Origin: Fibrobacter succinogenes subsp. succinogenes S85
GTDB lineage: Bacteria; Fibrobacterota; Fibrobacteria; Fibrobacterales; Fibrobacteraceae
Direction: 5' to 3'
Assembly: GCF_000146505.1 (NCBI RefSeq)
Contig: NC_017448.1
Span: 1,170,001-1,202,000, forward strand
DNA: 32,000 nucleotides
The translations under genes and the position numbers were made by a program. Of this stretch, positions 129 through 23,084 are shown one piece after another; the stretch's first letter is position 1; each line of letters opens with the position of its first letter. The notes under the pieces were generated by a model, which was not told the origin of the DNA, did no database searches, and saw nothing but the letters and a program-made list of their open reading frames with translations.

Positions 129-560
129 TTACTTTTCGATTTCGTACTGGGCAACGAGGTCGCCATTGGAATCGAGAGCACGGACGACGTTTTCATCGCG
201 CTGGAGAGTGAGGTTAGAGACTTCGCCCTTAGCAGAGGTGAACTGCACAGAGAGAGAGCCGTCTTCGTTCTTCACAGCAGCAACGGAGTTGCCCTGGGCA
301 TCCTTTTCATAGTAGGAATCGCCAGCTGCAAACGGATTGGAACCCGTCCAGAATTCGATGGTGTTCACGAAGAGGAAGTCTACAAAGAAGAAGCAAAGGC
401 CATAAGCCGGAGTTGCAAGGAAGTGAACCAAGGACTTAGCCCACTTGTTGCTGATTTTGCCAATGGCGTTGTGGAGCCACTTGGTGGAACCGTAACTACC
501 ATAGCAGCCGGAGAGGACGATCATGCCTGCGCAAAGAGCAGCGAGGATACCTTTTTTCAT
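129..560 (-). CDS. DUF3332-family lipoprotein
   Basis: 143-aa ORF with AAGGAG 9 nt upstream of the ATG and a signal peptide with lipobox (VLSGC). It carries the family-typical stretch ending in NTIEFWTGSNPF. The overlapping + strand ORF 108..632 has none of these features. Confidence 0.7.
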   Translation of the reverse strand: MKKGILAALCAGMIVLSGCYGSYGSTKWLHNAIGKISNKWAKSLVHFLATPAYGLCFFFVDFLFVNTIEFWTGSNPFAAGDSYYEKDAQGNSVAAVKNEDGSLSVQFTSAKGEVSNLTLQRDENVVRALDSNGDLVAQYEIEK

Positions 561-1037: not shown

Positions 1038-1157
1038 TTTGCCCCTCCTGAACGAACCTTCGCAACTTTTTGCTTGCATTTCTTTTATTTTTTTAATAAA
1101 TCTACAAATATCATACATACTTGATACATTTGAAGTTTTGGAATCAGGAGGTGAATC

Positions 1158-2711
1158 ATGAATGCGATAACTAAAGTGACTAGTATTATTACAGCTATTG
1201 CAGTTTCATCCATTTTTGCAGCCAAGGCACCCGTAGCTAAACCCGCCGCCAAAAAGCAGGAAGCTCTGACCGTCTGGATTATGCCAAACGGCGCATCGCC
1301 ACAAGAAAAACTTGAACAGAGATTAAACCTCTTTACCAAGAAAACAGGAATCAAGACAAAAGTCACCGTTCTGGACTGGGGTGTAGCCTGGAACCGCATC
1401 ACGACGGCACTTGCCACCGGCATAGACGCACCAGACGTATTACAGCTCGGCACAACATGGGTCCCGTACTTTGCTTCCCGCGGCGAAATCAAGCCTTTGA
1501 ACGAATGGCTCACACAAATTGATTCCACGAGGTTCGTTCCCGTCAGCTGGAACACGACTCATATCGACTCCGACACGACCATCTATTCCGTTCCGTGGTT
1601 CATCGATATCCGCCCAATTTTGGCCAACAAACGCATTCTCAAGAAGAACGACATCAATCCTGACGATGTCTCTACATTTGATGGATTCGTTAAAGCCATC
1701 CGCAAGGTGAACAACAGCCACGAAATGCTCGACGACGGCACCAAGGTCCGCGCATTTGCATTCCCGGGAAAGAACGACTGGAATATCCCGCACAACTTCG
1801 CCCCGTGGGTCTGGAGCAACGGCGGTAACTTCATCGAAAAAGACAATAGCGGTAAATGGAAGGCCGCCATCCTTACGCCAAAGACCATTTACGGTATCGC
1901 AAAGTACCTGAGCTTTGTGCTCGATACTCTTGTAAGCACCGAAGCCTTGCAGATGAACACGGCTCAGATCGTGCAACACTTTAACGCAGGCGAACTCGCC
2001 TTCATCGTGAACACGTCCGAAGTCATTATGCAGACCCGTTTCGATGGCGCCAAGGGCGGTCTTAACAACACGAAAATCGGTAAAGACAGCGTGATGGCAC
2101 TCCCCATCCCGACAGGCACGGAAGGTTCTGTCAGCTTTATCGGCGGAAGTAACCTCGCCATCCCGACAGGCAACAAAAAGCAAGAATCTTTGGATCTTTT
2201 ACTTTATCTCACCAACGATGAAAACTTGGATGCATATACAAAGCAAATAGGCATGCTCCCCGCATCGAAGAAGGTTCTTGCCAACTGGTCCAAGGACGAC
2301 GACTACAAGACGCTCGTTCCTATGCTCGGCACAGGGCGTGCCTACACAGCCATTCCAGAATGGGGCGATATTGAACAGATCCTCGGATCCATGTTCAGCA
2401 CCATTTGGGACCATCTCGAAATCCCGGCGCTTTACTCCGAAGAAAAGATTTATGAAATCCTCGCGAATTATTCAAACGACATAAACAAGCACCTGAACCA
2501 CCCGATTTCCGGAGACCTCACATTCGCAGAATTCCGCGAAACCTGGCACAAGGCCCTGGGCATCAAGGACGGAAACCAGAACAAGGGTATCGAAGAAAAA
2601 ACAAAGCCGACCGAAGAAAACGATTCCGGTTTCAGCCGTACCCCGTGGATTTTCGCCATCGCCGTGCTCTTCGGGTTCATTTTTGCGTTCACCCGTAGGA
2701 AAAAGCACTAA
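1158..2711 (+). CDS. Extracellular solute-binding protein (ABC family-1 sugar SBP type) with a C-terminal membrane anchor
   Basis: 517-aa ORF with AGGAGG 6 nt upstream of the ATG and an N-terminal signal peptide. The SBP-like core includes VWIMPNG and LDWGVAWNRITTALATGIDAPDVLQLGTTWVPYF. An extra tail ends in the hydrophobic helix WIFAIAVLFGFIFAF followed by RRKKH. Confidence 0.8.
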   Translation: MNAITKVTSIITAIAVSSIFAAKAPVAKPAAKKQEALTVWIMPNGASPQEKLEQRLNLFTKKTGIKTKVTVLDWGVAWNRITTALATGIDAPDVLQLGTTWVPYFASRGEIKPLNEWLTQIDSTRFVPVSWNTTHIDSDTTIYSVPWFIDIRPILANKRILKKNDINPDDVSTFDGFVKAIRKVNNSHEMLDDGTKVRAFAFPGKNDWNIPHNFAPWVWSNGGNFIEKDNSGKWKAAILTPKTIYGIAKYLSFVLDTLVSTEALQMNTAQIVQHFNAGELAFIVNTSEVIMQTRFDGAKGGLNNTKIGKDSVMALPIPTGTEGSVSFIGGSNLAIPTGNKKQESLDLLLYLTNDENLDAYTKQIGMLPASKKVLANWSKDDDYKTLVPMLGTGRAYTAIPEWGDIEQILGSMFSTIWDHLEIPALYSEEKIYEILANYSNDINKHLNHPISGDLTFAEFRETWHKALGIKDGNQNKGIEEKTKPTEENDSGFSRTPWIFAIAVLFGFIFAFTRRKKH

Positions 2712-2759
2712 CCAGTTGCAAATTCGTTAGTTATATTTCAAAAAAAGACGCAAAGAACT

Positions 2760-4460
2760 ATGGGTTTAAAATTTTCCAATCTCACAAACAGCATCATCAT
2801 CAAGAGTTTACTGCTCTTGATTGTCTCAATGCTTGTCATCGTGATGATTGGAACTTACGTTTTCACCCAGAGGCAAATGAAGACCACGCTTAAACTGAGT
2901 TACGATACCAACGAAACCCAGTTACAGCAACTCGCAAACACGGTCAACAACGAAATGGAGCAGTTTGCAAGTCGTCTGACTTTGTTGGCAAAGACTTCCG
3001 AAATTCAAAGCATGGACAAGCTCATAGCGGCCGGTTACCTCAAAAGCTTCAACATATCGTCGCTATTCATTTCGGGCGAATCCATATCGCTCTTTGACCG
3101 TAGCTACAATCTTGTCTGCAACAACTCCATGCTAGGCTCAACCAAGATAACCTACCCTATCGAGTTCAATAGAATTTCTCCTCACAGGCCGACCATTTCT
3201 CCATGGTTCCGCGACACCGACGGCACTCCCAAGCGAGCCTTTGGCGTTGTCGTTTCGGACAGAGCCATGGGTGATGGAAGACTGGTATCAAACTTTTCGA
3301 TTCGCCGACTCTGGAAATACTTTTCGGAATACAAAGTCGGGCAAAACGGCATTCTCATCGCATGCAATGGCCAAGGCGAAATCCTTTACCACCCGGATAT
3401 GAGAACTTGGCTTGACGGAATCCACAAGATTACGGAACTCGGACTTGGCGACATGAACATCAAGCAGGATAGCGATAATTCCATTCGTTTCGTAAAGCTG
3501 GACAATGGAAAATCCTACCTCATCAACAGGACTTTCAACCCGACTTACGACCTTGGTCTTATCGCCTTACAGCCTAAGACAGAAATTGATGCAATGGTTT
3601 CGTCGGTTCACCATGTCAGCCAAATCATTTTGTTCAGTTCGATTATCGCCATCTTGCTCGTGTCTCTTTGGCAGATTCTAATTGTGTGTAAGCCATTGAA
3701 CAACTTGATTGACCACATCTCGCAAATCACCGAAGGCAAGCTGGACATTGAAGAATTCAAGGCCAGGAGCAGCCAGGACGAAATCGGCAGACTTGCCAAG
3801 GTGTTCAACCAGATGCATGCGACCATCAAGCGGCAGATTCAGGAACTGAACGCGCATAGGGACATGCTTGAAAAAGAAGTCAAGGAACGCACATACGAGC
3901 TTGAACAAGCTAATAAAAAACTGGATTTGATTTCTAGAACGGATGAACTGACACAGTTGCCGAACCGCCGCGACATGCACAGGACTATCGAAAAGGAAGT
4001 CGACCGTGCAAACCGATTCAAAAAGGCGTTCAGCATCATCTTTATTGATATTGACCATTTCAAAGACGTGAACGACACGTACGGACATGCCGCAGGCGAT
4101 GCCGTGCTCAAGTCGGTCGCAAGCACCATTCGCAGTCTGTTGCGCAAGTACGATGTGCTCGCCCGCTATGGTGGCGAAGAATTCCTGACGCTCCTCCCCG
4201 AAACGGAACTGAAGGATGCAGCACACGTCGCCGAACGATTCCGCAAGCAGATTGAAAACCAGACCATCTTCTTTGGCGGCCAGGAAATCAAAGTGACGAT
4301 TACGCTTGGCGTAGCTCAGTTTGATAGCGGCCTTGGTGCAGAACGCTGCATCCAGCTTGCAGACAAGGCCCTTTACGAAGGCAAGGAACACGGCAGAAAC
4401 AGGGTCATCCTCTGGACGGACGATCAGGCCGTGGAAAGCACCGACAAGCCACTCGCATAA
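2760..4460 (+). CDS. Membrane sensor diguanylate cyclase (periplasmic Cache-like domain, HAMP, coiled coil, GGDEF)
   Basis: 566-aa ORF with two TM segments flanking a ~250-aa extracytoplasmic domain. A HAMP-like linker (DEIGRLAKVFNQM) follows. The GGDEF domain has GGEEF at nt 4170-4184 and an RxxD I-site (RKYD, nt 4143-4154) five residues upstream. Confidence 0.85.
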   Translation: MGLKFSNLTNSIIIKSLLLLIVSMLVIVMIGTYVFTQRQMKTTLKLSYDTNETQLQQLANTVNNEMEQFASRLTLLAKTSEIQSMDKLIAAGYLKSFNISSLFISGESISLFDRSYNLVCNNSMLGSTKITYPIEFNRISPHRPTISPWFRDTDGTPKRAFGVVVSDRAMGDGRLVSNFSIRRLWKYFSEYKVGQNGILIACNGQGEILYHPDMRTWLDGIHKITELGLGDMNIKQDSDNSIRFVKLDNGKSYLINRTFNPTYDLGLIALQPKTEIDAMVSSVHHVSQIILFSSIIAILLVSLWQILIVCKPLNNLIDHISQITEGKLDIEEFKARSSQDEIGRLAKVFNQMHATIKRQIQELNAHRDMLEKEVKERTYELEQANKKLDLISRTDELTQLPNRRDMHRTIEKEVDRANRFKKAFSIIFIDIDHFKDVNDTYGHAAGDAVLKSVASTIRSLLRKYDVLARYGGEEFLTLLPETELKDAAHVAERFRKQIENQTIFFGGQEIKVTITLGVAQFDSGLGAERCIQLADKALYEGKEHGRNRVILWTDDQAVESTDKPLA

Positions 4461-5949: not shown

Positions 5950-6909
5950 ATGATAGATCGCAACAAACACTTCCTCCGCCTCATGGACTGGAGTGAAGAA
6001 AAAGTTCTCGAAACCATCGAGATTGCCTCGCGTCTCAAGGCTGAAGTTCACGCTGGTAAGGTCTCTGACCGACTCCACGGCCAGAACATCGCCATGTTCT
6101 TCGAAAAACCGTCGCTGCGAACTATTACGACTTTCCAGGTGGGCATGAACCAGCTCGGCGGCCACGCCGTGCTTCTCTCCCCGGATTCTATTGGTCTCGG
6201 CAAGCGCGAAAGCGTCAAGGATGTCGCCCGCTGCCTCAGCCGCTGGGTCAACGCCATTGTGGTCCGTTGCTTCAAGCAGCAGCTCGTCGAAGAACTCGCT
6301 GAATACGGTTCCATTCCGGTTGTGAACGCTTTGACTGATGACTATCATCCGTGCCAGGCAATCGCTTTTGCCCAGATGATCAACGAAAGCCTCGGCGGAT
6401 TCAAGAACGCCGATGGCAAGCCGAAGACAGTCGCCTTCATCGGTGACGGCAACAACGTAGCGAACTCCTTCCTCGCCCTCGCCGCAAAGGTCGGCATGAA
6501 CTTTACGCTAGCCTGCCCGAAGGGCTTTGAACAGCCCGCCAAGGTTGTCGAAGAAGCGGAGGCCGGCTTGAAGAAGCACGGTTGCCAGTACCGCGTTTTC
6601 CACGATCCGAAGGAAGCTGTCAAAGACGCCGACATCCTCTATAGCGACGTTTGGGTTTCTATGGGTCAGGAAGGCGAAAAGGCAACCAAGCAAAGCCACT
6701 TCTTGCCGTTCCAGATTAACGACGAACTCTTGAAGCTCGCTCCTTCTCACTGCAAGGTCAGCCACTGCTTGCCGGCTCACCGCGGCGAAGAAATCACGGA
6801 CTCCGTGATGGACAATCTCGACGTGAACATGAGCTTCGAAGAAGCCGAAAACCGCCTGCACGCTCACAAGGCTGTTCTCTGGCAGGTGATGACGCCGTTC
6901 AACAAGTAA
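5950..6909 (+). CDS. argF: Ornithine carbamoyltransferase
   Basis: 319-aa ORF with the HPCQ, DVWVSMGQE (SMG loop) and HCLPAHRGEE motifs of canonical OTCases. The carbamoyl-phosphate motif reads SLRTI rather than STRTR. Confidence 0.85.
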   Translation: MIDRNKHFLRLMDWSEEKVLETIEIASRLKAEVHAGKVSDRLHGQNIAMFFEKPSLRTITTFQVGMNQLGGHAVLLSPDSIGLGKRESVKDVARCLSRWVNAIVVRCFKQQLVEELAEYGSIPVVNALTDDYHPCQAIAFAQMINESLGGFKNADGKPKTVAFIGDGNNVANSFLALAAKVGMNFTLACPKGFEQPAKVVEEAEAGLKKHGCQYRVFHDPKEAVKDADILYSDVWVSMGQEGEKATKQSHFLPFQINDELLKLAPSHCKVSHCLPAHRGEEITDSVMDNLDVNMSFEEAENRLHAHKAVLWQVMTPFNK

Positions 6910-6956: not shown

Positions 6957-7013
6957 CATTGTCAGCCCTCCCCTAAATAGCTATATTTGGACTCGTTTTA
7001 AAAGGAGTTGCGA

Positions 7014-7985
7014 ATGTCCTTCATTCAGGATCTTAAGGAAAAAGTTCTCGGCGGTTATGAAATTTCTCGCGAGGACGCCATCAAGCTTTTAAGCGAAGAC
7101 CTCGACGAACTCACGAAAGCCGCTGACGAAATCCGCGAAAAATTCCACGGCGACGACTTTGATTTTTGTTCCATCGTGAACGCCCGCAGCGGTCGCTGCT
7201 CCGAAAACTGCAAGTACTGCGCCCAGAGCAGTTATTACCACACCGGCGCACCCGAATACAAGTTGCTCAGCGCCGACGAAATTGTCGCTGATGCCAAGAA
7301 GAAAGAAGCGGCTGGCATCCCGCGTTACTCCATCGTGACTTCTGGCCGTACGCTTTCGAACCGCGACGTGGAGCAGATCAGCGAAGCGCTCCGCCGCCTC
7401 AAAAAAGAGACGAAGCTTTCAATTTGCCTCTCGGCAGGTCTCTTGAACAAGGAACAGTTCGACAAGCTCAAGGAAGCAGGCCTCACCCGCTTCCACAACA
7501 ACTTGGAAACGTACCGCCGTCACTTCCCGGACGTTTGCACGACGCACACTTACGACGATAAGATCGGTGCGCTCCAGAACGCTCTTGCCGCAGGCCTTGA
7601 AATTTGCAGCGGCGGCATCATGGGCCTTGGCGAAACGATGGAAGACCGCATCGACATGTGCCTGGATTTGCGCAAGCTCGGCGTCAAGTCGACTCCGGTG
7701 AACGTGCTGAACGCCATTCCCGGAACGCCGTACGAAAACCTGCCGAAGCTCACGAACGACGAATTCTGCCGCATCGTGGCGATTTATCGATTCATCAACC
7801 CGAAGGCATTTATCCGCCTTGCAGGTGGCCGTGGCGTTTTGGGCGACGACGGCAAGCGTGCATTCAAGAGTGGCGCAAATGCGGCCATCACGGACGACAT
7901 GCTCACCACTGCCGGCGTAAACAGCTGCAAGGATTTCGAACTTGTGAAAGGTCTCGGATTCAAACCGCACGGATTTATCGGCTAA
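7014..7985 (+). CDS. bioB: Biotin synthase
   Basis: Radical-SAM CSENCKYCAQS motif and BioB-like sequence throughout. The track start at 7008 is a TTG. The ATG at 7014 lies 6 nt after AAGGAG. Confidence 0.92.
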   Translation: MSFIQDLKEKVLGGYEISREDAIKLLSEDLDELTKAADEIREKFHGDDFDFCSIVNARSGRCSENCKYCAQSSYYHTGAPEYKLLSADEIVADAKKKEAAGIPRYSIVTSGRTLSNRDVEQISEALRRLKKETKLSICLSAGLLNKEQFDKLKEAGLTRFHNNLETYRRHFPDVCTTHTYDDKIGALQNALAAGLEICSGGIMGLGETMEDRIDMCLDLRKLGVKSTPVNVLNAIPGTPYENLPKLTNDEFCRIVAIYRFINPKAFIRLAGGRGVLGDDGKRAFKSGANAAITDDMLTTAGVNSCKDFELVKGLGFKPHGFIG

Positions 7986-8052: not shown

Positions 8053-9471
8053 CTAAGCAGCTTTTACCGGATTCAAGAAGAGATATTCTACCGTCTCAGT
8101 CTTGATTTTTATGCCTTTTTCGTGAGCGTAGAGATAAAGCAGTGCTGTACCGACACCAGCAGCGCCATCGTAAAGCCCCGTGTAGGTTTCTACGAAACCC
8201 GGCAATTTGCGAGTCCAAGCCGCAAACCAGCGACGTCCCTTGTCATCGTTCCAAGAATCACCTAGAAGCTTGTCTGCAGTGAGCTTCGCCTGTTCGATGT
8301 AGGATTCATCATTCAGTACTTCTGCCGTCTTCACGAAATGAGCGAGAACGCCAGGGGCTCCGCAGCAAAGGCAATAACTATTCCAATAACCCGGAGTATG
8401 CTTGAGTGGAGCGCCGGTCTTGAGGATACCCTTAGTGAGCAAGTCCACCCATTCCAAGTTTTCTTTGTTCTGAGTCACATCGAAAAGTTTGCGGAACAAA
8501 AGTGTTGTACCTACGGGACCATGGCAAGTCGAAAGGTAATAGAAGTCATGGAAACGCCCCTTTTCCGGATTGTAGAGATACGGAATCAAAGCACCATTTT
8601 CATCGCCCTCAACGATTGCCGAAAGGAACTTGACAACTTCATTCGCCTTGTCGAGATAAGCTTTTTCCTTAGTTTCTTCGTACAAGAGAACATTCAAGAA
8701 AGCGGATCCAGCAGCACCATGGCTAAAGTTAGGGAACACAGATTCCTTGGATTTCCAGCCAACAAGCGTCAAGTCCACGTTCTTGTAGTAAATGCCGCCT
8801 TCCTTGGCATGGACAATTCTCGTGTCTGTAAAAGCGACAACTTTTTTGGCCGCTTCTAGATACTTCTTGTCTTTAGTCTTGCGATAGACGTAAAGGAAGA
8901 AAAACGCGTAAGATCCATCGGCCATCAAGTCGGCTTCGGAGCTCCAGTGGAGCGTGTTACCGTCATCAACGCCTGCAGCGATGGAATCGTCAGCCGTGCG
9001 GATCAGGAATTCGCGGTAACGCGGATCGCCCGTATGTTCGTAAAGCTGTTCCACGAAAATTGCCTGCCCCGCCGGTGACGCATAGACACTCGTTCCCCAG
9101 CCCTTGACCGGCCAGACACCGCCGTCGTTTCCGTTCAACACATTATCAAAGAACTGTTTGCCTTCGTACGTGTTGAGGATGTATTCTGCTGCATCCTTTG
9201 CCTCTTGCAAATACGCTTCGTCCTGAGTGACATCGTAAAGTTGCAAGAAGAATTGGCCAATGCCAGCCGAGCCGGCATAAAGGCCCTTAGGCGTAATCAT
9301 CAGGTCGCCCTTGTACTCATTTCCCGGTTCCGGGCTTGCTTTCCAGTACTTGCCATGCGGCGTGACGACCTCATTTGTCTTGAGATACTTGACAATCTGC
9401 AAAACCGCTTCGAGATAATTTCCATTTTTGGAGGCGCTAAAATCTAGATTTTGAACAAAGTTTAATTTCAT
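8053..9471 (-). CDS. LanC-like (lanthionine synthetase C family) alpha/alpha-toroid protein
   Basis: 472-aa ORF with six spaced G-rich helix-start repeats: GLYAGSAGIG, YASPAGQA, SHGAAGSA, TCHGPVGT, LCCGAPGV and LYDGAAGVG. Each is followed ~20 aa later by D/E..YL..A. Cys and His candidates for a Zn site are present (TCHG, CCG, SHG). Its ATG overlaps the stop of the upstream gene (TAATG). Confidence 0.65.
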   Translation of the reverse strand: MKLNFVQNLDFSASKNGNYLEAVLQIVKYLKTNEVVTPHGKYWKASPEPGNEYKGDLMITPKGLYAGSAGIGQFFLQLYDVTQDEAYLQEAKDAAEYILNTYEGKQFFDNVLNGNDGGVWPVKGWGTSVYASPAGQAIFVEQLYEHTGDPRYREFLIRTADDSIAAGVDDGNTLHWSSEADLMADGSYAFFFLYVYRKTKDKKYLEAAKKVVAFTDTRIVHAKEGGIYYKNVDLTLVGWKSKESVFPNFSHGAAGSAFLNVLLYEETKEKAYLDKANEVVKFLSAIVEGDENGALIPYLYNPEKGRFHDFYYLSTCHGPVGTTLLFRKLFDVTQNKENLEWVDLLTKGILKTGAPLKHTPGYWNSYCLCCGAPGVLAHFVKTAEVLNDESYIEQAKLTADKLLGDSWNDDKGRRWFAAWTRKLPGFVETYTGLYDGAAGVGTALLYLYAHEKGIKIKTETVEYLFLNPVKAA

Positions 9472-14418: not shown

Positions 14419-16095
14419 TTATTTGATAACTAGGCCCTTTTTCCCAGAGACGAACGGGTCTTCGCCCGTCGAACAGAAATTCGTTTTTTCGGAGTACTTG
14501 CCAAGCCCTCTTATATTAATTCGGCTCTTAGCATTCGCTTCACCTTGGACTGCAAAGAGAATCGATGTCATAAATGTCGTACTGACTTCACTAAACACCG
14601 TCATAAAATTATCCCAATCGGCACATACCGTCTTTAGCTTAATGGACTTGGGCAATGTCATCTTAGGCATTCTAGAAAGATTTCCAAATCCACCTTCTTG
14701 AGTATAAGCCAAAACAACTTCCAAGTCAGAGTCCGAAGCATACGTTACGCACAAGCCTCCCCAACTTGAGATATTAGCCTTAGCAGCCGGTAAATCACCA
14801 TCAAGCGGATCAACAACACCAGCGACATGGAAACCTATACCCAAATAACCTTCTTTTGCAAATTGCAATTCACCACAAGCGCCCATACAGTAATCATAAA
14901 TTTCATCGCCCGTCGGATATTCAATCCCAAGCGGTTGCGGTAATTTTACAGAACCAACACCGGACATATCGTCGCCAAAGCTGAACCAATATCCTGAAGT
15001 TTCGGATCCGTTGTCTAGCCCGGTCTCAACATGATAATCATTATTATTGACAGCCTTCGGACCATACCACATTTCGCTAACGGACTCAGGCGAGACACAA
15101 TCGTGAGAAGGAGTAAAAGACGAACTGCTCCCGTTCACGCCAGAGCTGCTTGAGCTACGCAATATAATCGTTCCGACCTCAGCTCCTCCATTGAATTTAG
15201 AAACAACCTCCGCGAAACCGTCTACTTCGCACGCTCCCATCGCATCAAATTTACCGATTGCAGCGATATTGAAATGTCCTTTCGTTTCCTCGGAACTTTT
15301 CATTACGACTCTAATGGAATGGGCATGCTTAGCCGCCTCAGCAGCCGTCGATGTTGCTTTTGCTGTTGCACCGACAAATTCACTCCAAGGAACGCACTTT
15401 TCAACAAATTCAAGAGATTTGTCCAGTTTGACTTCATAGAAAGTAACTGAATCTGCGCCAAGCCACAAGAACATATCCCTGTCGGCAGCATACGTCACAC
15501 AAACACCGCCCCAGTCACTGATATCGCCATACCGCTGGATATGTTTCGTATAATATTCTTCAGGATTTTCAACCCCGGCGACATTAAATCCGACACCCGC
15601 AAAAGCTTCATTTAAGATGCCTTTTTGCAAGACAATCGCTCCACTATATCCCCCATAATATTCAAGCAAGTTTTCCATGCATTCATACTCAGGAGTTTCA
15701 AACGCGCAGACATCGGGAAAAACAACACTTGACGTTCCGCCATCAGGATCATCGCCAAAATTATACCAAAGTCCGGCATAATTATCAAGATCCTCATTAA
15801 CAAAACCCGTATTCACGTATGTCTTTTTATCAAAGCCCCGCCACAAGCAGGCAGCTGTATTCTTCGGTGTTTTGGCACTACTTGAGGAATTTACAATCAC
15901 GCTACTTGATGACTCGCCCCCAACGACGCTCGATGACATTCCAACACCATCACTGCTACCAGGAACGGTTTCAACAGATGAACTGCTATTGCCGTAAGCC
16001 GGGACATCAAAACTACCCGACGGGTTATCGTCAGAGCAAGCAACAAAGCCAAACAGCAAGGCACTCGCCGCAATATCTAAAATTCTCCTAAACAC
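14419..16095 (-). CDS. Two-module Cys-containing lipoprotein, lineage-specific paralog 3 of 3
   Basis: 558-aa ORF with a GTG start 6 nt after AAGGAG. The signal peptide and lipobox read MFRRIL...FVACSDDNPS and are followed by a Ser-rich linker. Two ~190-aa modules carry WGG(V/L)CVTY, AG(V/I)GF, KC/VCxxW and FNI/INIxG.GK motifs. Confidence 0.8.
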   Translation of the reverse strand: MFRRILDIAASALLFGFVACSDDNPSGSFDVPAYGNSSSSVETVPGSSDGVGMSSSVVGGESSSSVIVNSSSSAKTPKNTAACLWRGFDKKTYVNTGFVNEDLDNYAGLWYNFGDDPDGGTSSVVFPDVCAFETPEYECMENLLEYYGGYSGAIVLQKGILNEAFAGVGFNVAGVENPEEYYTKHIQRYGDISDWGGVCVTYAADRDMFLWLGADSVTFYEVKLDKSLEFVEKCVPWSEFVGATAKATSTAAEAAKHAHSIRVVMKSSEETKGHFNIAAIGKFDAMGACEVDGFAEVVSKFNGGAEVGTIILRSSSSSGVNGSSSSFTPSHDCVSPESVSEMWYGPKAVNNNDYHVETGLDNGSETSGYWFSFGDDMSGVGSVKLPQPLGIEYPTGDEIYDYCMGACGELQFAKEGYLGIGFHVAGVVDPLDGDLPAAKANISSWGGLCVTYASDSDLEVVLAYTQEGGFGNLSRMPKMTLPKSIKLKTVCADWDNFMTVFSEVSTTFMTSILFAVQGEANAKSRINIRGLGKYSEKTNFCSTGEDPFVSGKKGLVIK

Positions 16096-16126
16096 AACGC
16101 ACTCCTTTATTACTTAATTATAAATT

Positions 16127-17662
16127 CTATTTTTCAAAAAAGGCTGGTGTTTCAAAAGAGCACGCGCCATTAACGGAATATTTCCCTATACCCGCCAAAT
16201 TAAATCTACATTGTTCATGATCCTCAGTACCCTTTATAGCAAACTGGATAGCACCAACAGCTCGCCCCATATCAGGGTCATTTGGCGCAATTTCATTCCA
16301 AGTAAAGCACTTTTCGACAAGCCCACTGGACTTTGGCAAAGCGACCTTAGGAGAGTTCTCGTAAGGAACATCTTTTACAACAAAGTTCAAGTAAGCATCC
16401 TTTTCGGAATAGTAAGTGACGCAAACACCGCCCCAGTCTTGAATATCTTCGAAAACGTAATCGCCATCATTAAAGCCCGCAATATTAAACGAGACCCCGC
16501 CAACAGCGTATTCAGCCCCTTCCAGAGTAAAATCCATCGTCCCACAAAAACCGAGACAATCCTCAATAAGGCCACCATACACTTCATATCCAAACTCCCC
16601 TGACAGCTCCACCGGGAATTCAATATGAGCATAAGCGTCACCAGGAGACGCCTCAAAATGTTCCAACCAGCCCGCGTACCTGTCACGGTCATTATAGCCT
16701 GTTTTCACATGGGTTCCGTCAACCCCTTTCCACAGACAAGTCAAGGAATCATCATCAGGAAAATTTACATTGACCCCATCATTAGGAAATTCCCAATCAA
16801 ACGAAAATTCGTCCGGTTTATAAGTACTGATTCCCCTAATATTGAAAGTTTTCTTATCGTCATCACCTTGGCTTTTAACCTCAAACATGATAGACAGGAT
16901 TTCCTTTGCGGCCTCTTCTCCCGTATAAACCTGGCGATTGATTGAATATTCGGAATATTTCCATTTAGTTATATCAAAACGGCTCCATTCTGCACATACA
17001 GTTTTAGGCTCGTCAATCCAATACAAATTACGAAGTGTGGGTTCAGAACCACCATGCGTCGTTCTTTCTAGAAAGCCCTCAGGATATGCCATGAACGGCC
17101 ATATTTCACTATTGGAATCAATTCCATCAACATTAACTTTCAAATGGACATACATCCAATAATCAGATTCATACGTGATACAGATACCACCCCAAGACGA
17201 AACATCCGCCGTAGCGCCGTCCCTGGCTAGTTGGATTTCAAAACCAGCCCAAGGTCTATACACTGAAGTATCGGGTTCAAGCGATCCGCATAAGCCATCA
17301 CAATGTTTAAAAACAGAGGCCAAAGGAGTCGATGATTTTTCGAGTTCGACAGGGAAAACAATCTTCGATTTACCCTGTTGACCAAACAAGGTATCGCCAA
17401 AGGTTCGCCAAAAGCCCGTGCTATCGTCACCCGTTTTGACCTTGTAATCTACGGCAGGGTCCCACAAGTTATAGCGGCGAGCCTTTACCGCACCACTCGA
17501 AGAAGACTCGACTACGACACCGTCACTCGAAAGAGCATCTACAGACGAGCTACTCCCTTCTGCGATAGGCTCAGCAATCGGAATCGAAGGATTGTCATCG
17601 GAACAGGCGACAATTCCAAGTAAAAAGGCTGAAATCGCGCCCCCAAGGATTCTCCTAAACAT
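16127..17662 (-). CDS. Two-module Cys-containing lipoprotein, lineage-specific paralog 2 of 3
   Basis: 511-aa ORF with an ATG 6 nt after AAGGAG. The signal peptide and lipobox read MFRRIL...IVACSDDNPS. Its modules contain SSWGGICITY / QDWGGVCVTY, HCDGLCG / DCLGFCG, and FNIRGISTY / FNLAGIGKY. Confidence 0.8.
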   Translation of the reverse strand: MFRRILGGAISAFLLGIVACSDDNPSIPIAEPIAEGSSSSVDALSSDGVVVESSSSGAVKARRYNLWDPAVDYKVKTGDDSTGFWRTFGDTLFGQQGKSKIVFPVELEKSSTPLASVFKHCDGLCGSLEPDTSVYRPWAGFEIQLARDGATADVSSWGGICITYESDYWMYVHLKVNVDGIDSNSEIWPFMAYPEGFLERTTHGGSEPTLRNLYWIDEPKTVCAEWSRFDITKWKYSEYSINRQVYTGEEAAKEILSIMFEVKSQGDDDKKTFNIRGISTYKPDEFSFDWEFPNDGVNVNFPDDDSLTCLWKGVDGTHVKTGYNDRDRYAGWLEHFEASPGDAYAHIEFPVELSGEFGYEVYGGLIEDCLGFCGTMDFTLEGAEYAVGGVSFNIAGFNDGDYVFEDIQDWGGVCVTYYSEKDAYLNFVVKDVPYENSPKVALPKSSGLVEKCFTWNEIAPNDPDMGRAVGAIQFAIKGTEDHEQCRFNLAGIGKYSVNGACSFETPAFFEK

Positions 17663-17737
17663 ACAACACTCCTTTCTTTTATCTATAAATTGTAATATAT
17701 ATTATTTCTTTTACTTAGTTACCAGTTATGAATACAA

Positions 17738-17761
17738 AGCCCGCCGCTAACGCGACGGGTT
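17738..17761 (-). terminator. Hairpin downstream of lipoprotein paralog 1
   Basis: The minus strand reads CCCGTCGC-GTTA-GCGGCGGG followed by CTTTG. The plus-strand version is followed by TTTTCTT. Confidence 0.45.
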
Positions 17762-17808
17762 TTCTTACATCAATTCTTTTTATTTAGAAGCTTCGCTCCC
17801 AATATATT

Positions 17809-19149
17809 TTATTCATTTACAGGGAACAAGGTAACCTTAGACACATCTATTTTGCAAGTTCCTGTGGGTGAATATTTTCCGACAGCGATGACGCTCAACC
17901 CTGCAGTCGTATCCACGAGACTTCTCAATTCAAATTCAATAAGGCTCGCATTTTTTGCCACTTCCTGAGCAGACATTTCTTCCCAAGTCAAGCATTTTTC
18001 AATAGGCGATGTCGACATCGGCAAGGTAGCGCTAGCTTCATGAGCGGAGTCAGCCACAAGCACAAGACGCGCATCCATCTCCGACATGTAAGTTACGCAG
18101 AGACCGCCCCAGGCGCTAACATCTCTAGGCTTGGGGTAGAAATCTTCGCTTTCTTCATCATAGCCAATAATCTGGAGACCGATGCCTGCAAAGGCTTCTT
18201 CATTATTGTTCTTTTGCAGGTTTACAGTCGCAGAAAGGCCTCCCTTCGACTTCACGACATCGGCTACCCAGACGGAAACACTCATGTACTTTGACGGCAA
18301 TACATCCCATTCAAGCGACGATAAGCCACCTTCTTCCTGGTCGTTAAATTCATACCAGGATCCGCCTTCCAGGCCGTCATAGCCCGTAATCAAAGAATCT
18401 CCATCATCCTTCGGTGCTGCATTCCAGAGGCAGGAATCCTGTTCCAAAGAATCAATCTTGACAATACCGTGCTTATAGGAGCTAACGCCTTTAATGTTGA
18501 AGAATCCCGATTCCTTCGACTTGCCCATGAACTTGAATATCAGCGAAGTCACCTTTTTAGCCACTTCAGCACTGGAACCATTCTGGAATTCAGCCCATTT
18601 CGCACAACGTGCTGCGACAGAACCCTTTGTCGTCTTTTCAAAATTGACAGACGGCATGTCTTCCGCTGAAGCTTCTGCATCGCCATCCTTATAGCCAAGC
18701 AGGCCCTTCATCGAGAGTTCCGATTCATAGGAAACGCACAAGCCGTCCCATCCGGAAACATCTATAGCAGTATCCTTTTCGACAAGTGCAATACCCACGC
18801 CTGCGCTAACGTCAGAACCTTCTCCAAGTTCAACAGTTCCGCAAACACCGCCGCAATAGGAGACCACGGATTCCATGGCATCCGGCGAATCGTCTTCTTC
18901 CACGGACACAGGGAACGTAATTGAGGACCGTCCAAGAACAGGAGAGCTTTCAACGTACCAGTAACCGGTAACGCCGTCGCCCATATTGACACGAGCACTA
19001 CCGTTCGCGCCATTCCACAGGTCGTACTTGTACTGTGTGTTGTCGGCAACCGGGTTGCCTTCTTCCGTAATCCCGGCAGTTTCTTTGGAACATGCGACCA
19101 TGCCCAGCAAAAAAGCACAGGCAGAGATGTTAATTAGGTTCCTTAGCAT
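17809..19149 (-). CDS. Two-module Cys-containing lipoprotein, lineage-specific paralog 1 of 3
   Basis: 446-aa ORF with lipobox LGMVACS. Its modules contain SGWDGLCVSY / SAWGGLCVTY, YCGGVCG, RCAKWAEF / KCLTWEEM, and FNIKGVSSY / VIAVGKYS. Confidence 0.8.
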   Translation of the reverse strand: MLRNLINISACAFLLGMVACSKETAGITEEGNPVADNTQYKYDLWNGANGSARVNMGDGVTGYWYVESSPVLGRSSITFPVSVEEDDSPDAMESVVSYCGGVCGTVELGEGSDVSAGVGIALVEKDTAIDVSGWDGLCVSYESELSMKGLLGYKDGDAEASAEDMPSVNFEKTTKGSVAARCAKWAEFQNGSSAEVAKKVTSLIFKFMGKSKESGFFNIKGVSSYKHGIVKIDSLEQDSCLWNAAPKDDGDSLITGYDGLEGGSWYEFNDQEEGGLSSLEWDVLPSKYMSVSVWVADVVKSKGGLSATVNLQKNNNEEAFAGIGLQIIGYDEESEDFYPKPRDVSAWGGLCVTYMSEMDARLVLVADSAHEASATLPMSTSPIEKCLTWEEMSAQEVAKNASLIEFELRSLVDTTAGLSVIAVGKYSPTGTCKIDVSKVTLFPVNE

Positions 19150-19969
19150 CGCACTTGTCCTTTCCCCATGTCAGAGGGAACAGCTGTAAATTCAATCGGT
19201 AAACGCGGTCAGTACCGCGACTATTCAACGCAATCTGGGCAATCCTCTTTCTGCAGGTATCAAGCTCCTGCAAAATTTGTTCATAATCCTCATCGGAAAT
19301 GCCCATCGTAAGACCCGTAAAATTACGTTCCTCCGGATCAAAACGGTCAATCGCTTCCCCAGCGAAAACGGCCATTTTGCGGTGCATATAGCGAAGCGCC
19401 ATGGACACCACAGAAGACGAACCCTTCAAATGCTTGTCCGCCTGCTCGTAGGTATCGCCGTTTTTCTTTAAGAGCCCCACGCGTACCATGAAATCAAGCG
19501 AATCGCGGATTTCACCAGCAGAGACGCATTGACAGCAACGCCTGGCAATATCGCCCGGAGTCGCCTTCGGCATAATCGGCGCAAGCTCTCTCACCACCGG
19601 ATGCACCCAGGATTCAAAATACTTGAACGCATCGCCATCGACAAGTTTTACCTTGTTATTGGCAGCAAGCTCCATCATGGATTCAAAGGCTATTTTGCGT
19701 TCCTGGTCCGTCTTGGCATGGCAATAAGTCACCATGGTCTTGAAATATTCAAGTTCAAAACCAGCAAGGCTCATGGCCATTCCGACCTTTTCTGCCCCTT
19801 GAGGAGAAAGGCGGGTCTTACCCTCACACACCAACTTCAAATAAGTTGGAGACGTAAAGCCCGAGGCTTTCGCATATTCACGCCACGAAAACGACGAAAC
19901 TCGCTTACGTTCGTCGTAATAATCTTGCATATAAACGCGATAGTCCTGATATTCCGTCACCGACTTCAT
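19130..19969 (-). CDS. TIGR02147/DUF4423-family protein (putative HTH regulator)
   Basis: The N-terminus MKSVTEYQDYRVYMQDYYDERKRVSSFSWREYAKASGFTSPTYLKLVCEGKTRLS matches my memory of the family signature. The track ORF extends 13 codons further, to 20008. The 3' end overlaps the next gene's start by 20 nt. Confidence 0.7.
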   Translation of the reverse strand: MKSVTEYQDYRVYMQDYYDERKRVSSFSWREYAKASGFTSPTYLKLVCEGKTRLSPQGAEKVGMAMSLAGFELEYFKTMVTYCHAKTDQERKIAFESMMELAANNKVKLVDGDAFKYFESWVHPVVRELAPIMPKATPGDIARRCCQCVSAGEIRDSLDFMVRVGLLKKNGDTYEQADKHLKGSSSVVSMALRYMHRKMAVFAGEAIDRFDPEERNFTGLTMGISDEDYEQILQELDTCRKRIAQIALNSRGTDRVYRLNLQLFPLTWGKDKCDAKEPN

Positions 19970-20096
19970 CGCAATAAATATATATAATTTTGTATTAAAC
20001 GGCAACATTTCATGATACCGTTTACACGTTTTTAGCTTAAATTTGCAAGAATTGCCGAAATTTAATCAAAATCGGCATTTTCTATGATACAGGAAA

Positions 20097-22379: not shown

Positions 22380-23084
22380 TTAGTCTTTGACGCAACGAAC
22401 TGAAAAAGCCATGAACTTGGGACGATAGTCCACATCCGCATTGTCATTCCTATAGATCAAGCGCATGGCATACGCATACTCGTCACTCTTCTCTGTAGAG
22501 ATCCAAAAAGTTGCTTCGTTGCCCACATAGGTATAATCACCCCCACCATCCCTGTAGCCGACAGGCAAAGCCGAGAACGCGTAATCATCCGAGCCGTTGC
22601 CGCTAGCTTTGGCAAAGTTCCAGCCACTTGTTGATTTAAGCATCTTGCCCGCAACAGAGTCGCCGCCAACAGCAGAGAACAATGTTTCAAACTCCGCTTT
22701 TGTCGGCAAGTGCCAGCCATTCGGACAAACACCACGCACCGGGGACATCGCCGAACATTCCGATTTATAGCCGCACCCCTTGCCGTTCGAACTCCACTCG
22801 CCTGCGCTGTCCATCGCCGCAGCCCATGTGTACAGGCGACCGTACTTGGTGCAGTTGGAGGAATCGTCATTGAAACAGAATGATTTTTCCGTTTCAATGT
22901 TCAAGTTCTGAGCCATCCACGTCTGTTTTCCGATAACGACAGTCTTATAGGTTTGACCGTCGCGGGAGTCCGTCAAAGTCGATAAAGACTCCTTCCCCGA
23001 AGGGCTGGTTACAGAACTATCATCGCCGCAGGCGGCAAGGAAAAGTCCAATCCAAAGAGAAGCACAAAGAACAAATTTTTTCAT
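22380..23084 (-). CDS. FISUMP (TIGR02145, Fibrobacter succinogenes major paralogous domain) lipoprotein
   Basis: The start was trimmed to MKKFVLCASLWIGLFLAACGDD (lipobox). The domain signature is DSRDGQTYKTVVIGKQTWMAQNL ... YGRLYTW ... CPNGWHLPTKAEFETL ... FSALPVGYR ... FSVRCVKD. Confidence 0.85.
   Translation of the reverse strand: MKKFVLCASLWIGLFLAACGDDSSVTSPSGKESLSTLTDSRDGQTYKTVVIGKQTWMAQNLNIETEKSFCFNDDSSNCTKYGRLYTWAAAMDSAGEWSSNGKGCGYKSECSAMSPVRGVCPNGWHLPTKAEFETLFSAVGGDSVAGKMLKSTSGWNFAKASGNGSDDYAFSALPVGYRDGGGDYTYVGNEATFWISTEKSDEYAYAMRLIYRNDNADVDYRPKFMAFSVRCVKD

What the first reader, a model, noticed from the sequence alone, without database searches (positions are those of the whole stretch)
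1158..4460. Orphan solute-binding protein paired with a Cache-like/HAMP/GGDEF cyclase: candidate ligand-to-c-di-GMP sensing pair
Seen in sequence: a 517-aa family-1 sugar-type SBP gene lies 48 nt upstream of a membrane diguanylate cyclase gene on the same strand. The cyclase has an intact GGEEF active site and an RxxD I-site. No ABC permease or ATPase gene is adjacent; the flanks are a divergent Nudix gene and dusA. Established knowledge: SBPs can act as co-receptors for membrane sensors, as in chemoreceptors and some histidine-kinase three-component sugar-sensing systems. Inference: the SBP may deliver an extracellular oligosaccharide signal to the periplasmic domain of the cyclase, coupling substrate availability to c-di-GMP and hence to adhesion or biofilm in a polysaccharide degrader.
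Basis: partly seen in the sequence, partly recalled or inferred. Interest (0 to 1): 0.65.

Follow-up and report, generated by a model that had tools for sequence, protein, structure and literature searches.

The report
Tethered sugar-binding protein plus c-di-GMP cyclase sensor
In the cellulose-degrading rumen bacterium Fibrobacter succinogenes, a membrane-tethered relative of cellodextrin-binding proteins is always encoded next to (and in some bacteria fused with) a membrane diguanylate cyclase, so the two most likely form a two-piece receptor that turns a periplasmic beta-glucan sugar signal into the second messenger c-di-GMP.

Summary
The window is F. succinogenes S85, and the genes are FSU_1047 (SBP) and FSU_1048 (HAMP/GGDEF).

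New findings:
- The SBP has a signal peptide plus a conserved C-terminal transmembrane helix and basic tail. It is therefore tethered, not diffusible.
- Its closest solved relatives are the Thermus beta-glucoside-binding protein and C. thermocellum CbpB, which binds cellodextrins.
- The cyclase's periplasmic domain models confidently as a dCache fold.
- In 90 of 90 genome or assembly loci, and in 71 of 73 metagenome loci with room downstream, the SBP gene is followed within a few bases by a gene with the same sensor domain. The other neighbours change, and no CUT1 permease is seen.
- The same SBP and sensor module carries other outputs: an Hpt-HATPase kinase, HisKA kinases and SpoIIE phosphatases.
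- In at least three lineages the SBP and sensor are one polypeptide, including a 1081-1088 aa SBP-TM-TM-dCache-HAMP-GGDEF protein.

Published proteomics detected both proteins in the envelope. FSU_1047 was higher on cellulose, and c-di-GMP was 2.5-fold higher on cellulose.

The ligand, the sign of the response and the physical contact remain inferred. I rate it a new variant of a known kind (NspS-MbaA, CuaD-CuaS).

The parts
1146..1151 (+). Shine-Dalgarno sequence AGGAGG, 6 nt upstream of the SBP start codon
   Evidence: Read directly from the sequence
1158..2711 (+). SBP gene, FSU_1047 of F. succinogenes S85 (517 aa, family-1 sugar-type solute-binding protein)
   Evidence: ORF. Pfam SBP_bac_8 and SBP_bac_1. 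MW 57.575 kDa, pI 7.77 and GRAVY -0.218 are identical to the FSU_1047 values in PMC4619616. The neighbours argF and bioB match FSU_1051 and FSU_1052.
1158..1223 (+). Signal peptide (residues 1-22, ...SSIFAA|K). It has no lipobox cysteine.
   Evidence: Hydrophobic segment at residues 3-27. The A-x-A-type end is conserved in the homolog alignment A2. The cleavage site is inferred.
1263..2567 (+). Two-lobed SBP core (about residues 36-470), related to beta-glucoside and cellodextrin binding proteins
   Evidence: PDB sequence search: 7c63 series E 1e-71, 7x0i CbpB E 7.5e-56. Identity to 7c63 is 33.7% over 410 aligned residues, with 12 conserved Trp. Mean identity to the window among 43 representative orthologs is 62%.
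2568..2630 (+). Low-complexity, poorly conserved tether (about residues 471-491)
   Evidence: Mean identity to the window is 11% across 43 representatives. Length and sequence vary in A2. pLDDT is below 50 for residues 472-496 in the AF2 model.
2631..2708 (+). C-terminal transmembrane helix (about residues 492-512) and basic cytoplasmic tail RRKKH
   Evidence: Hydropathy scan. A hydrophobic 17-mer and at least 3 K/R in the last 7 residues are present in 43 of 43 representative orthologs.
2712..2759 (+). 48-nt intergenic spacer. Both ORFs are in the same reading frame, separated by one stop codon and 15 sense codons. No terminator-like site was found on the + strand.
   Evidence: The median spacer in 43 representative loci is 15 nt, and 42 of 43 are at most 50 nt.
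2760..4460 (+). [quoted passage not shown]
   Evidence: ORF. Pfam. NCBIfam GGDEF domain model TIGR00254, 173.7 bits. The name and locus tag come from the supplement of PMC6851124.
2793..2864 (+). Transmembrane helix 1 (about residues 12-35)
   Evidence: Hydropathy segment at residues 7-38
2865..3614 (+). Periplasmic dCache-fold sensor domain (residues 36-285)
   Evidence: AF2 model m798c77ee4aab has pLDDT 87.1 and pTM 0.84. Foldseek top hits are all dCache ligand-binding domains: Mlp24 6ior E 1e-9 with TM 0.67-0.69, PscC 6mni, Mlp37, CtaA, DctB. The homolog P0147 passes the Pfam dCache_1 cut-off (49.3 bits).
3615..3689 (+). Transmembrane helix 2 (about residues 286-310)
   Evidence: Hydropathy segment at residues 282-314
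3690..3827 (+). HAMP domain (residues 311-356)
   Evidence: Pfam HAMP 9.1e-9
3939..4403 (+). GGDEF catalytic domain (residues 394-548)
   Evidence: Pfam GGDEF 1.8e-48. The motifs DELTQLPNRR, DIDHFKDVND and KALYEGKEHGRNR can be read in the translation.
4143..4154 (+). I-site RKYD (RxxD, residues 462-465)
   Evidence: RxxD at -5 is present in 39 of 39 complete representative orthologs.
4170..4184 (+). Active-site motif GGEEF (residues 471-475)
   Evidence: GGEEF is present in 39 of 39 complete representative orthologs.

Best explanation
FSU_1047 and FSU_1048 form a two-piece extracytoplasmic receptor.

Shown or directly read from sequence:
- FSU_1047 has a signal peptide, so it is exported to the periplasm.
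- It has a C-terminal transmembrane helix preceded by a flexible tether of about 20-30 residues, so it stays attached to the inner membrane.
- Its gene is co-transcribed with, and lies right next to, the gene for the dimeric membrane cyclase FSU_1048.
- FSU_1048 has the architecture TM1-dCache-TM2-HAMP-coiled coil-GGDEF.

Inferred from homology:
- The SBP binds a beta-linked gluco-oligosaccharide. Cellobiose or cellodextrins are the most likely ligands; laminaribiose or mixed-linkage oligosaccharides are possible.

Inferred from gene order, fusions and output swapping:
- The liganded (or unliganded) SBP docks on the periplasmic dCache domain of the cyclase.

Inferred from established knowledge of HAMP and GGDEF proteins:
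- The resulting change is passed through TM2 and HAMP to the GGDEF dimer.
- This sets the rate of c-di-GMP synthesis.
- The RxxD I-site provides product feedback.

The sign of the response is unknown. Activation by cellulose breakdown products would fit the published 2.5-fold higher c-di-GMP in cellulose-grown S85.
For: Gene models, motifs and topology:
-.

Ligand class:
- The best solved relatives are the 7c63 series, which I take to be the T. thermophilus beta-glucoside-binding protein (E 1e-71), and CbpB 7x0i (E 7.5e-56).
- CbpB binds cellodextrins G2-G5 and laminaribiose, and shares subsites +1 to +3 with the Thermus protein (PMC9601137).
- Identity to 7c63 is 33.7%, with 12 conserved Trp.

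Sensor fold:
- The AF2 model has pLDDT 87.1, and the Foldseek hits are all dCache ligand-binding domains.

Coupling of SBP and sensor:
- The SBP gene is followed by a gene with the homologous sensor domain in 90 of 90 loci. These include 80 loci drawn from the collection of one genome per species, all labelled Fibrobacter, Fibrobacteraceae or Fibrobacteria.
- The same holds in 71 of 73 metagenome loci with room downstream.
- The median spacer is 15 nt.
- The downstream neighbours differ: dusA, PBP1A, a HAD hydrolase and others.
- No permease family appears among 150 neighbours.
- The sensor-domain family is tiny: 54 clusters at 50% identity among 1.84 billion representatives.
- The family includes single-chain fusions SBP-TM-TM-sensor-output with GGDEF (P0185, P0188, P0145), HisKA-HATPase (P0157, P0159) and SpoIIE (P0172 = L091) outputs.
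- In L088 and L089 the same SBP and sensor module is wired to an Hpt-HATPase kinase.

Conserved features:
- The C-terminal TM helix and basic tail are present in 43 of 43 representatives. GGEEF and RxxD are present in 39 of 39.

Expression:
- Both proteins were detected in the S85 envelope proteome: FSU_1047 with 11 peptides and FSU_1048 with 5.
- FSU_1047 was found only in cellulose-grown cells in one study and was 1.25-fold up on cellulose in another. That second study also measured c-di-GMP 2.5-fold higher on cellulose.
Against: - No binding, interaction or activity measurement exists for these proteins.
- The AF2 run on the concatenated chain returned no inter-domain error or coordinates, so no interface could be read. 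Its overall pTM was only 0.50.
- dCache domains usually bind small ligands themselves, so the cyclase could also, or instead, sense something directly.
- At 34% identity to the solved beta-glucoside binders, ligand specificity is only a class-level guess.
- FSU_1048 abundance barely changed between glucose and cellulose in the proteome (log ratios about 0.14-0.15).
- S85 has several other GGDEF proteins that could explain the c-di-GMP rise.
- Whether S85 encodes an orphan CUT1 permease pair elsewhere was not tested.
- Two metagenome loci (L093, L094) carry a related SBP without a sensor.
Confidence: 0.75

Rival explanations
1. FSU_1047 is an ordinary ABC-importer SBP for cellobiose or cellodextrin that works with a permease and ATPase encoded elsewhere. 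This is how Raut et al. 2019 interpreted it. On this view its position next to the cyclase reflects only shared regulation or ancestral gene order, and the cyclase senses its own ligand through its dCache pocket.
For: - The nearest solved relatives are transporter SBPs.
- Raut et al. listed the protein under 'cellobiose/cellodextrin import'.
- dCache domains typically bind ligands directly (one search hit list; PMC8846402).
Against: - No permease or ATPase sits next to the SBP in any of 42 diverse loci or in the 32-kb window.
- Adjacency to the sensor holds down to 46-50% SBP identity while other neighbours turn over.
- Covalent fusions of this SBP to this sensor exist in three lineages.
- Output domains are swapped behind the same SBP and sensor module.
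Confidence: 0.08
2. The SBP has two roles. It feeds a distant ABC transporter and also signals to the cyclase, as maltose-binding protein does with Tar, or the chitin-oligosaccharide binding protein does with ChiS.
For: Dual-use SBPs are documented (Table 1 of PMC8050422). The SBP core is well conserved, at 62% mean identity, as expected for a protein that keeps a sugar pocket.
Against: SBPs that stimulate kinases and GGDEF/EAL proteins are usually encoded with signalling genes, whereas transporter-linked ones sit with transporter genes (PMC8050422). Here the linkage is only to the sensor. A chain fused to the sensor (P0185, P0157, P0172) could hardly shuttle to a transporter.
Confidence: 0.12
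3. The pair is a co-receptor system as proposed, but the ligand is not a cellulose product. It could be laminari- or mixed-linkage beta-glucan oligosaccharides, sophoro-oligosaccharides or another glycan. Alternatively, the ligand switches the cyclase off rather than on.
For: The Thermus homolog binds several beta-linkages, and CbpB also binds laminaribiose. Lin1841, a beta-1,2-gluco-oligosaccharide binder (5ysb), is also among the hits. NspS-MbaA and CBP-ChiS show that either sign and apo-state binding occur.
Against: F. succinogenes uses only cellulose products as carbon sources (PMC3079729). FSU_1047 and c-di-GMP both rise on cellulose.
Confidence: 0.3

Closest known systems
NspS-MbaA of Vibrio cholerae (and ScrB-ScrC of V. 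parahaemolyticus)
   Same: An SBP homolog (NspS is also SBP_bac_8) is encoded next to a membrane c-di-GMP enzyme whose periplasmic domain is dCache-like. The SBP signals independently of transport. These are the only two SBP-GGDEF/EAL systems listed in the 2021 review (PMC8050422).
   Different: - NspS is a PotD-like polyamine binder and is soluble in the periplasm.
- MbaA and ScrC are GGDEF-EAL proteins.
- Here the SBP is a sugar type (CUT1, beta-glucoside clade) and is tethered by a C-terminal TM helix.
- Here the enzyme is a GGDEF-only cyclase with an intact I-site.
- No sequence relationship to NspS or MbaA was tested here.
CuaD-CuaS-CuaR three-component cellobiose sensor of Ruminiclostridium cellulolyticum
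   Same: A second cellobiose-binding SBP, dedicated to signalling, binds the extracellular domain of a membrane sensor in a cellulolytic bacterium and reports cellulose breakdown products (PMC10384115).
   Different: The output there is a histidine kinase and response regulator that control transporter genes, in a Gram-positive host. Here the output is c-di-GMP in a diderm. Kinase-output versions of the present module do exist elsewhere (L088, L089, P0157).
T. thermophilus beta-glucoside-binding protein (7c63 series) and C. thermocellum CbpB (7x0i series)
   Same: These are the closest solved sequence relatives (E 1e-71 and 7.5e-56). They have the same two-lobed family-1 SBP fold, and the Trp residues are conserved.
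   Different: Both are components of ABC importers. The Fibrobacter protein has no adjacent permease genes, carries a C-terminal TM anchor, and is genetically locked to a sensor.
CBP-ChiS (Vibrio) and ChvE-VirA, GltB-GtrS sugar SBP-kinase pairs
   Same: A sugar or oligosaccharide SBP regulates a membrane sensor through its periplasmic domain, which is dCache-like in ChiS.
   Different: These SBPs also serve transporters and are encoded with transporter genes. Their outputs are kinases. The CBP is an SBP_bac_5 protein.

Membership tests
Active diguanylate cyclase (GGDEF domain) | GGDEF-domain profile match above the curated cut-off | tested here: met
   Pfam PF00990 164.8 bits (cut-off 23.8). 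TIGR00254 173.7 bits (cut-off 37.4).
Active diguanylate cyclase (GGDEF domain) | Intact GG(D/E)EF active-site motif, and an RxxD I-site five residues upstream | tested here: met
   GGEEF at 471-475 and RKYD at 462-465. Both are conserved in 39 of 39 orthologs.
Active diguanylate cyclase (GGDEF domain) | Measured c-di-GMP synthesis | not testable with these tools
   This needs an enzyme assay.
dCache_1 extracytoplasmic sensor domain | Pfam PF02743 match above the gathering score | tested here: not met
   The window protein scores 21 bits against a cut-off of 45. The related family member P0147 scores 49.3 bits. Others score 27-40 bits.
dCache_1 extracytoplasmic sensor domain | Double PAS-like fold on a long N-terminal helix, between two TM helices | tested here: met
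   The AF2 model has pLDDT 87.1 and pTM 0.84. The top 50 Foldseek hits are essentially all dCache ligand-binding domains, with TM 0.55-0.72. TM helices flank the domain.
dCache_1 extracytoplasmic sensor domain | Small-ligand pocket in the membrane-distal module | not tested
   Only family-wide conserved residues were listed: F103, E107, N122, P157, G173, S180, R183. The pocket was not analysed.
CUT1-type ABC-transporter sugar SBP (beta-glucoside/cellodextrin clade) | SBP_bac_1 / SBP_bac_8 fold and sequence similarity to characterised members | tested here: met
   Pfam. PDB hits 7c63 at 1e-71 and 7x0i at 7.5e-56.
CUT1-type ABC-transporter sugar SBP (beta-glucoside/cellodextrin clade) | Encoded in an operon with two BPD_transp_1 permease genes | tested here: not met
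   None is in the window. BPD_transp_1 does not appear among the families found in 150 neighbours of 42 diverse loci, though that list shows only families with at least two members. A distant permease elsewhere in the S85 genome was not searched for.
CUT1-type ABC-transporter sugar SBP (beta-glucoside/cellodextrin clade) | Diffusible periplasmic protein in a Gram-negative bacterium | tested here: not met
   A conserved C-terminal TM helix and basic tail are present in 43 of 43 representatives. The review states that Gram-negative SBPs are diffusible.
SBP-dependent c-di-GMP signalling pair (NspS-MbaA type) | SBP gene adjacent to, and conserved with, a membrane GGDEF and/or EAL protein that has a periplasmic domain | tested here: met
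   90 of 90 and 71 of 73 loci.
SBP-dependent c-di-GMP signalling pair (NspS-MbaA type) | Physical SBP-sensor interaction | not testable with these tools
   There is indirect support only: single-chain fusions. The AF2 output gave no interface information.
SBP-dependent c-di-GMP signalling pair (NspS-MbaA type) | Ligand-dependent change of c-di-GMP that requires the SBP | not testable with these tools
   There is only a correlation in the literature: c-di-GMP is 2.5-fold higher on cellulose.

The most novel reading that the evidence does not exclude
FSU_1047 and FSU_1048 are the long-sought periplasmic cellodextrin sensor of Fibrobacter, and the direct cause of the cellulose-dependent rise in c-di-GMP. 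This would link substrate hydrolysis to adhesion and envelope remodelling. More generally, 'C-terminally tethered SBP plus dCache' is an undescribed, portable two-piece receptor cassette. It occurs either split or fused through a TM hairpin. Evolution has plugged it onto cyclase, HisKA-kinase, Hpt-kinase and PP2C-phosphatase outputs in Fibrobacterota, Spirochaetota and other uncultured lineages.
Probability: 0.3. Interest if true: 0.8.

Novelty: new variant of a known kind. Interest (0 to 1): 0.62.

Why it matters
F. succinogenes is one of the most effective cellulose degraders known. How it senses cellulose is unknown. Few regulators lie near its cellulase genes (PMC3079729). The authors who measured the c-di-GMP rise on cellulose stated that the signals sensed by its GGDEF proteins are not known (PMC6851124).

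This pair gives a concrete, testable route from a periplasmic beta-glucan oligosaccharide to c-di-GMP.

It would also be the first sugar-type (SBP_bac_1/8) SBP linked to c-di-GMP enzymes. A 2022 census noted that only SBP_bac_3, of the whole PBP clan, has been studied in c-di-GMP networks, and that sugar input was known only through the PTS (PMC8846402).

The split and fused versions, with interchangeable outputs, make the family a natural system for studying how SBP docking is transmitted through dCache and HAMP. They could also serve as a parts source for oligosaccharide biosensors.

Finally, the result corrects a published functional assignment of FSU_1047 as an import SBP.

Tried and rejected

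2. The version that ran used the window concatenation, the natural fusions and unpaired rows (A6). It gave pLDDT 73.4 and pTM 0.50. The output has no PAE or coordinates, so no interface could be read.

3. The word-indexed homology search with the sensor domain found only 13 proteins. The exhaustive representative search was needed to reach distant relatives.

4. The look-up of the fused protein P0188 returned no DNA and an uninformative 5.8-kb contig.

5. I could not obtain a residue-level alignment to CbpB, because it ranks sixth and only five alignments can be printed. CbpB's stacking residues W90 and W296 were therefore not mapped. Only conservation against 7c63 was counted.

6. Inter-protein covariation (DCA) was considered and dropped. 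About 44 effective sequences is far too few.

7. The correlation of SBP and dCache identities (r = 0.94, against 0.83 for SBP and GGDEF) mostly reflects shared phylogeny. I do not count it as evidence.

8. FSU_2110, another 'extracellular solute-binding protein' in the S85 proteome, was checked as a possible second pair. Its listed neighbour is dacB.

9. An Rfam scan found no c-di-GMP riboswitch in the window.

10. The promoter and terminator pattern scans gave no more hits than shuffled sequence.

Full report
**Observation**

The SBP gene is at 1158..2711 (+, 517 aa). The cyclase gene is at 2760..4460 (+, 566 aa). They are separated by 48 nt.

Pfam gives SBP_bac_8 and SBP_bac_1 for the first protein. 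For the second it gives HAMP, GGDEF and a sub-threshold dCache_1 hit. GGEEF is at residues 471-475, and an RKYD I-site lies five residues upstream of it.

The flanks are a divergent NUDIX gene, a DUF3332 lipoprotein gene and dusA. Nothing in the 32-kb window resembles a sugar ABC permease or ATPase.

A strong AGGAGG Shine-Dalgarno sequence precedes the SBP start. No terminator-like site lies between the genes on the + strand.

**Identity of the locus**

The SBP has a computed mass of 57.575 kDa, pI 7.77 and GRAVY -0.218. These are the exact values printed for FSU_1047 of F. succinogenes S85 in PMC4619616.

The supplement of PMC6851124 lists FSU_1048 as 'HAMP/GGDEF domain protein', FSU_1051 as argF and FSU_1052 as bioB. 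This matches the window's gene order: OTCase at 5950..6909 and biotin synthase at 7008..7985. A Fib_succ_major domain protein is also in the window.

The SBP has an N-terminal signal peptide. It also has a C-terminal hydrophobic helix followed by RRKKH.

In an alignment of 26 homologs, the SBP core is strongly conserved and the 20-30 residues before the helix vary in sequence and length. The helix plus K/R tail is always present. Across 43 representatives clustered below 82% identity, 43 of 43 have it.

The protein is therefore predicted to be tethered to the outer face of the inner membrane. This is unusual for a diderm, whose SBPs are normally diffusible (PMC8050422).

The cyclase has two TM helices flanking a 250-residue periplasmic domain. 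With a 10-sequence alignment, that domain folds in AlphaFold2 with pLDDT 87.1 and pTM 0.84. Its Foldseek hits in the PDB are dCache ligand-binding domains throughout: Mlp24, PscC, Mlp37, CtaA, DctB and Tlp3, with TM-scores up to about 0.7. 'Cache-like' is therefore confirmed as a dCache fold, although the window protein itself is below Pfam's cut-off.

**Likely ligand class**

A sequence search of the PDB puts the 7c63-7c71 series ('sugar ABC transporter periplasmic sugar-binding protein') first, at E 1e-71. CbpB (7x0i series) follows at E 7.5e-56.

PMC9601137 describes CbpB as the cellodextrin (G2-G5) and laminaribiose binding protein of C. thermocellum. It notes 39% identity, and conserved +1 to +3 subsites, with the T. 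thermophilus HB8 beta-glucoside-binding protein. I take the 7c63 series to be that Thermus protein from memory; the paper does not cite the PDB code.

The window SBP is 33.7% identical to 7c63 over 410 aligned residues, and twelve tryptophans are conserved. This supports a beta-gluco-oligosaccharide ligand at the level of class only.

**Is the pairing conserved?**

Three SBP homologs at 60-81% identity all have a HAMP-GGDEF gene immediately downstream. Beyond that gene the neighbours differ: dusA, a PBP1A gene, or hypothetical and HAD genes.

A scan of one genome per species returned 155 relatives. The best 80 are all labelled Fibrobacter, Fibrobacteraceae or Fibrobacteria.

In all 90 loci then in hand, the ORF after the SBP carries the homologous sensor domain. 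The median spacer is 15 nt, and 42 of 43 representatives are at most 50 nt.

A metagenome scan was seeded with the most divergent SBPs. Of the 73 loci with room downstream, 71 showed the same arrangement. The exceptions are L093 and L094, a high-GC organism in which the SBP sits next to dnaA with neither a sensor nor a permease.

A Pfam census covered 150 genes flanking 42 diverse loci. It found DUF3332 (20), NUDIX (10), HAD hydrolases (8) and assorted housekeeping genes. BPD_transp_1 did not appear in the list, which shows only families with at least two members. The only ABC_tran hits (3) co-occur with HlyD-type efflux components.

**Output swapping and Rosetta-stone fusions**

In two deep-branching Fibrobacteria MAGs (L088, L089), the SBP at 46-49% identity is followed by an 875-aa protein. 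It has the same dCache-like sensor and HAMP, but an Hpt plus HATPase_c kinase output in place of GGDEF.

An exhaustive profile search with the sensor domain covered 1.84 billion representative proteins. It found only 54 clusters at E <= 1e-3, so this is a small and specific sensor family.

Its members carry GGDEF, Hpt-HATPase, HisKA-HATPase (with or without receiver and Hpt domains) or SpoIIE (with or without GAF) outputs.

Several members are single polypeptides. In these, an SBP of this same clade (WIMPN..., LDWG.A., NFAPWIWS.GGD motifs) is followed in order by:
- a linker,
- a TM helix,
- a loop of 10-20 residues,
- a second TM helix,
- the sensor domain,
- a third TM helix,
- the output domain.

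The fused proteins are:
- P0185 (1081 aa) and P0188 (1088 aa), with GGDEF;
- P0157 and P0159 (labelled Spirochaetota), with HisKA-HATPase;
- P0172 (equal to L091), with SpoIIE.

The topology of these fusions is exactly what is obtained by joining FSU_1047 and FSU_1048 head to tail. In S85 the two ORFs happen to be in the same frame, separated by one stop codon and 15 sense codons.

Gene fusion, invariant adjacency and output swapping together are the standard genomic signature of two proteins that act as one sensory unit.

**Catalytic competence**

The GGDEF domain scores far above threshold. GGEEF and RxxD are present in 39 of 39 complete orthologs. The DxLTxLxNRR, DIDHFKxxND and KxxGRN motifs are readable in the translation. 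A functional, product-inhibited cyclase is expected from established knowledge of PleD-type GGDEF domains.

**Expression and physiology from the literature**

FSU_1047 was detected only in envelope preparations from cells grown on microcrystalline cellulose (PMC4619616). It was 1.25-fold more abundant on cellulose in an iTRAQ study. That study interpreted it as a cellodextrin import SBP because of 31.3% identity to CbpB.

FSU_1048 was detected with 5 peptides and changed little between conditions.

The same study measured about 2.5-fold more c-di-GMP in cellulose-grown cells. It stated that the signals sensed by the GGDEF proteins are unknown.

**Mechanism proposed**

Shown:
- the two genes, their domain architectures and motifs;
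- the predicted topology;
- the dCache fold (as a model);
- conserved operon-like linkage;
- fusions and alternative outputs;
- expression of both proteins in the envelope.

Inferred:
- The tethered SBP captures a beta-gluco-oligosaccharide, most plausibly cellodextrins released by the cell-surface cellulases and admitted to the periplasm.
- The SBP docks on, or is released from, the dCache domain of the cyclase dimer.
- TM2 and HAMP transmit the change to the GGDEF dimer.
- c-di-GMP output changes, bounded by I-site feedback.
- The sign is unknown. Activation would fit the published c-di-GMP rise.

**Rivals**

A pure transporter role is hard to reconcile with the fusions, the tether and the absence of permease linkage. 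A dual role cannot be excluded without a genome-wide permease search. A different glycan ligand, or an inhibitory sign, remains quite possible.

**Comparison with known systems**

SBP-controlled c-di-GMP enzymes are known. NspS-MbaA and ScrB-ScrC are the only two in the 2021 review, and both have dCache-like receptors.

A cellobiose-binding SBP dedicated to signalling through a kinase is known in R. cellulolyticum (CuaD-CuaS-CuaR).

The 2022 census of c-di-GMP sensory inputs states that only SBP_bac_3, of the PBP clan, has been studied in such networks. It lists sugar input only through PTS EIIA-Glc.

The present system therefore works like NspS-MbaA and CuaDSR. It differs in combining four things:
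- a sugar-type SBP;
- a C-terminal TM tether in a diderm;
- a GGDEF-only cyclase;
- membership in a small modular family that exists both split and fused.

I rate it a new variant of a known kind.

**Limits**

All functional statements rest on comparative genomics, structure prediction and published proteomics. The fused-chain AlphaFold run (pLDDT 73.4, pTM 0.50) could not be interrogated for an interface. Ligand identity, contact surface, sign of regulation and downstream targets all need experiments.

Noticed in passing
window 129..560 (-); loci L001-L090: A small DUF3332 lipoprotein gene (lipobox ...LSGC) lies upstream of the SBP on the opposite strand. It recurs there in 20 of about 42 diverse loci, and a NUDIX gene recurs in 10. 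It could be ancestral gene order or a third partner of the system.
   Followed up: partly
L088 7511-10138 and L089 7484-10111: These are 875-aa membrane proteins with a dCache-like sensor, HAMP, an Hpt domain and HATPase_c, but no HisKA hit. That makes them CheA-like kinase cores attached directly to a transmembrane sensor and paired with the SBP. One cluster member is annotated 'Hpt domain-containing protein [Fibrobacterota bacterium]'.
   Followed up: partly
window 2709-2762: The SBP and cyclase ORFs are in the same reading frame, separated by a single TAA stop and 15 sense codons. Loss of that one stop would reproduce the architecture of the natural fusion proteins P0185 and P0188.
   Followed up: yes
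L011 and L037 (both from MAG RUG13674); L016 and L044 (both from bin SRR12081299_bin.60): Some Fibrobacter assemblies carry two SBP-cyclase pairs, one about 80-95% and one about 60% identical to the window SBP. This suggests paralogous sensors with possibly different ligands, unless the bins are mixtures. Whether S85 has a second pair was not established.
   Followed up: no
L093 2448-4061 and L094 106-1719: A related SBP from a high-GC organism sits beside dnaA with neither a sensor nor a permease gene nearby. These two loci are the only exceptions to the pairing rule.
   Followed up: partly
window 14419..19146 (-) and 19130..20008 (-): Three consecutive large ORFs (558, 511 and 446 aa) have no Pfam match. 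A DUF4423 protein follows on the same strand. GC skew is strongly negative here.
   Followed up: no
window 30070..30440 (+): A bacterial RNase P class A RNA gene scores 271 bits. No tRNA genes are in the window.
   Followed up: yes
window 8053..9471 (-): A 472-aa protein has a LanC-like domain (5.4e-28) and weak hits to glycoside-hydrolase (alpha/alpha)6-barrel families. A PALP enzyme gene is adjacent.
   Followed up: no
window 22380..23282 (-): [quoted passage not shown]
   Followed up: yes
window DGC residues 94-107, 122, 173-183: Within the dCache domain a few polar and aromatic positions (K95, F103, E107, N122, G173, S180, R183) are at least 85% conserved across the family. F103, E107, N122, S180 and R183 are also conserved in about 92% of the 12 distant or fused rows, and G173 in all of them, whereas K95 falls to 67%. 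They are candidate SBP-docking or pocket residues. Part of the region (the ...LKSFNISSLFISGE... loop) has low pLDDT in the model.
   Followed up: partly
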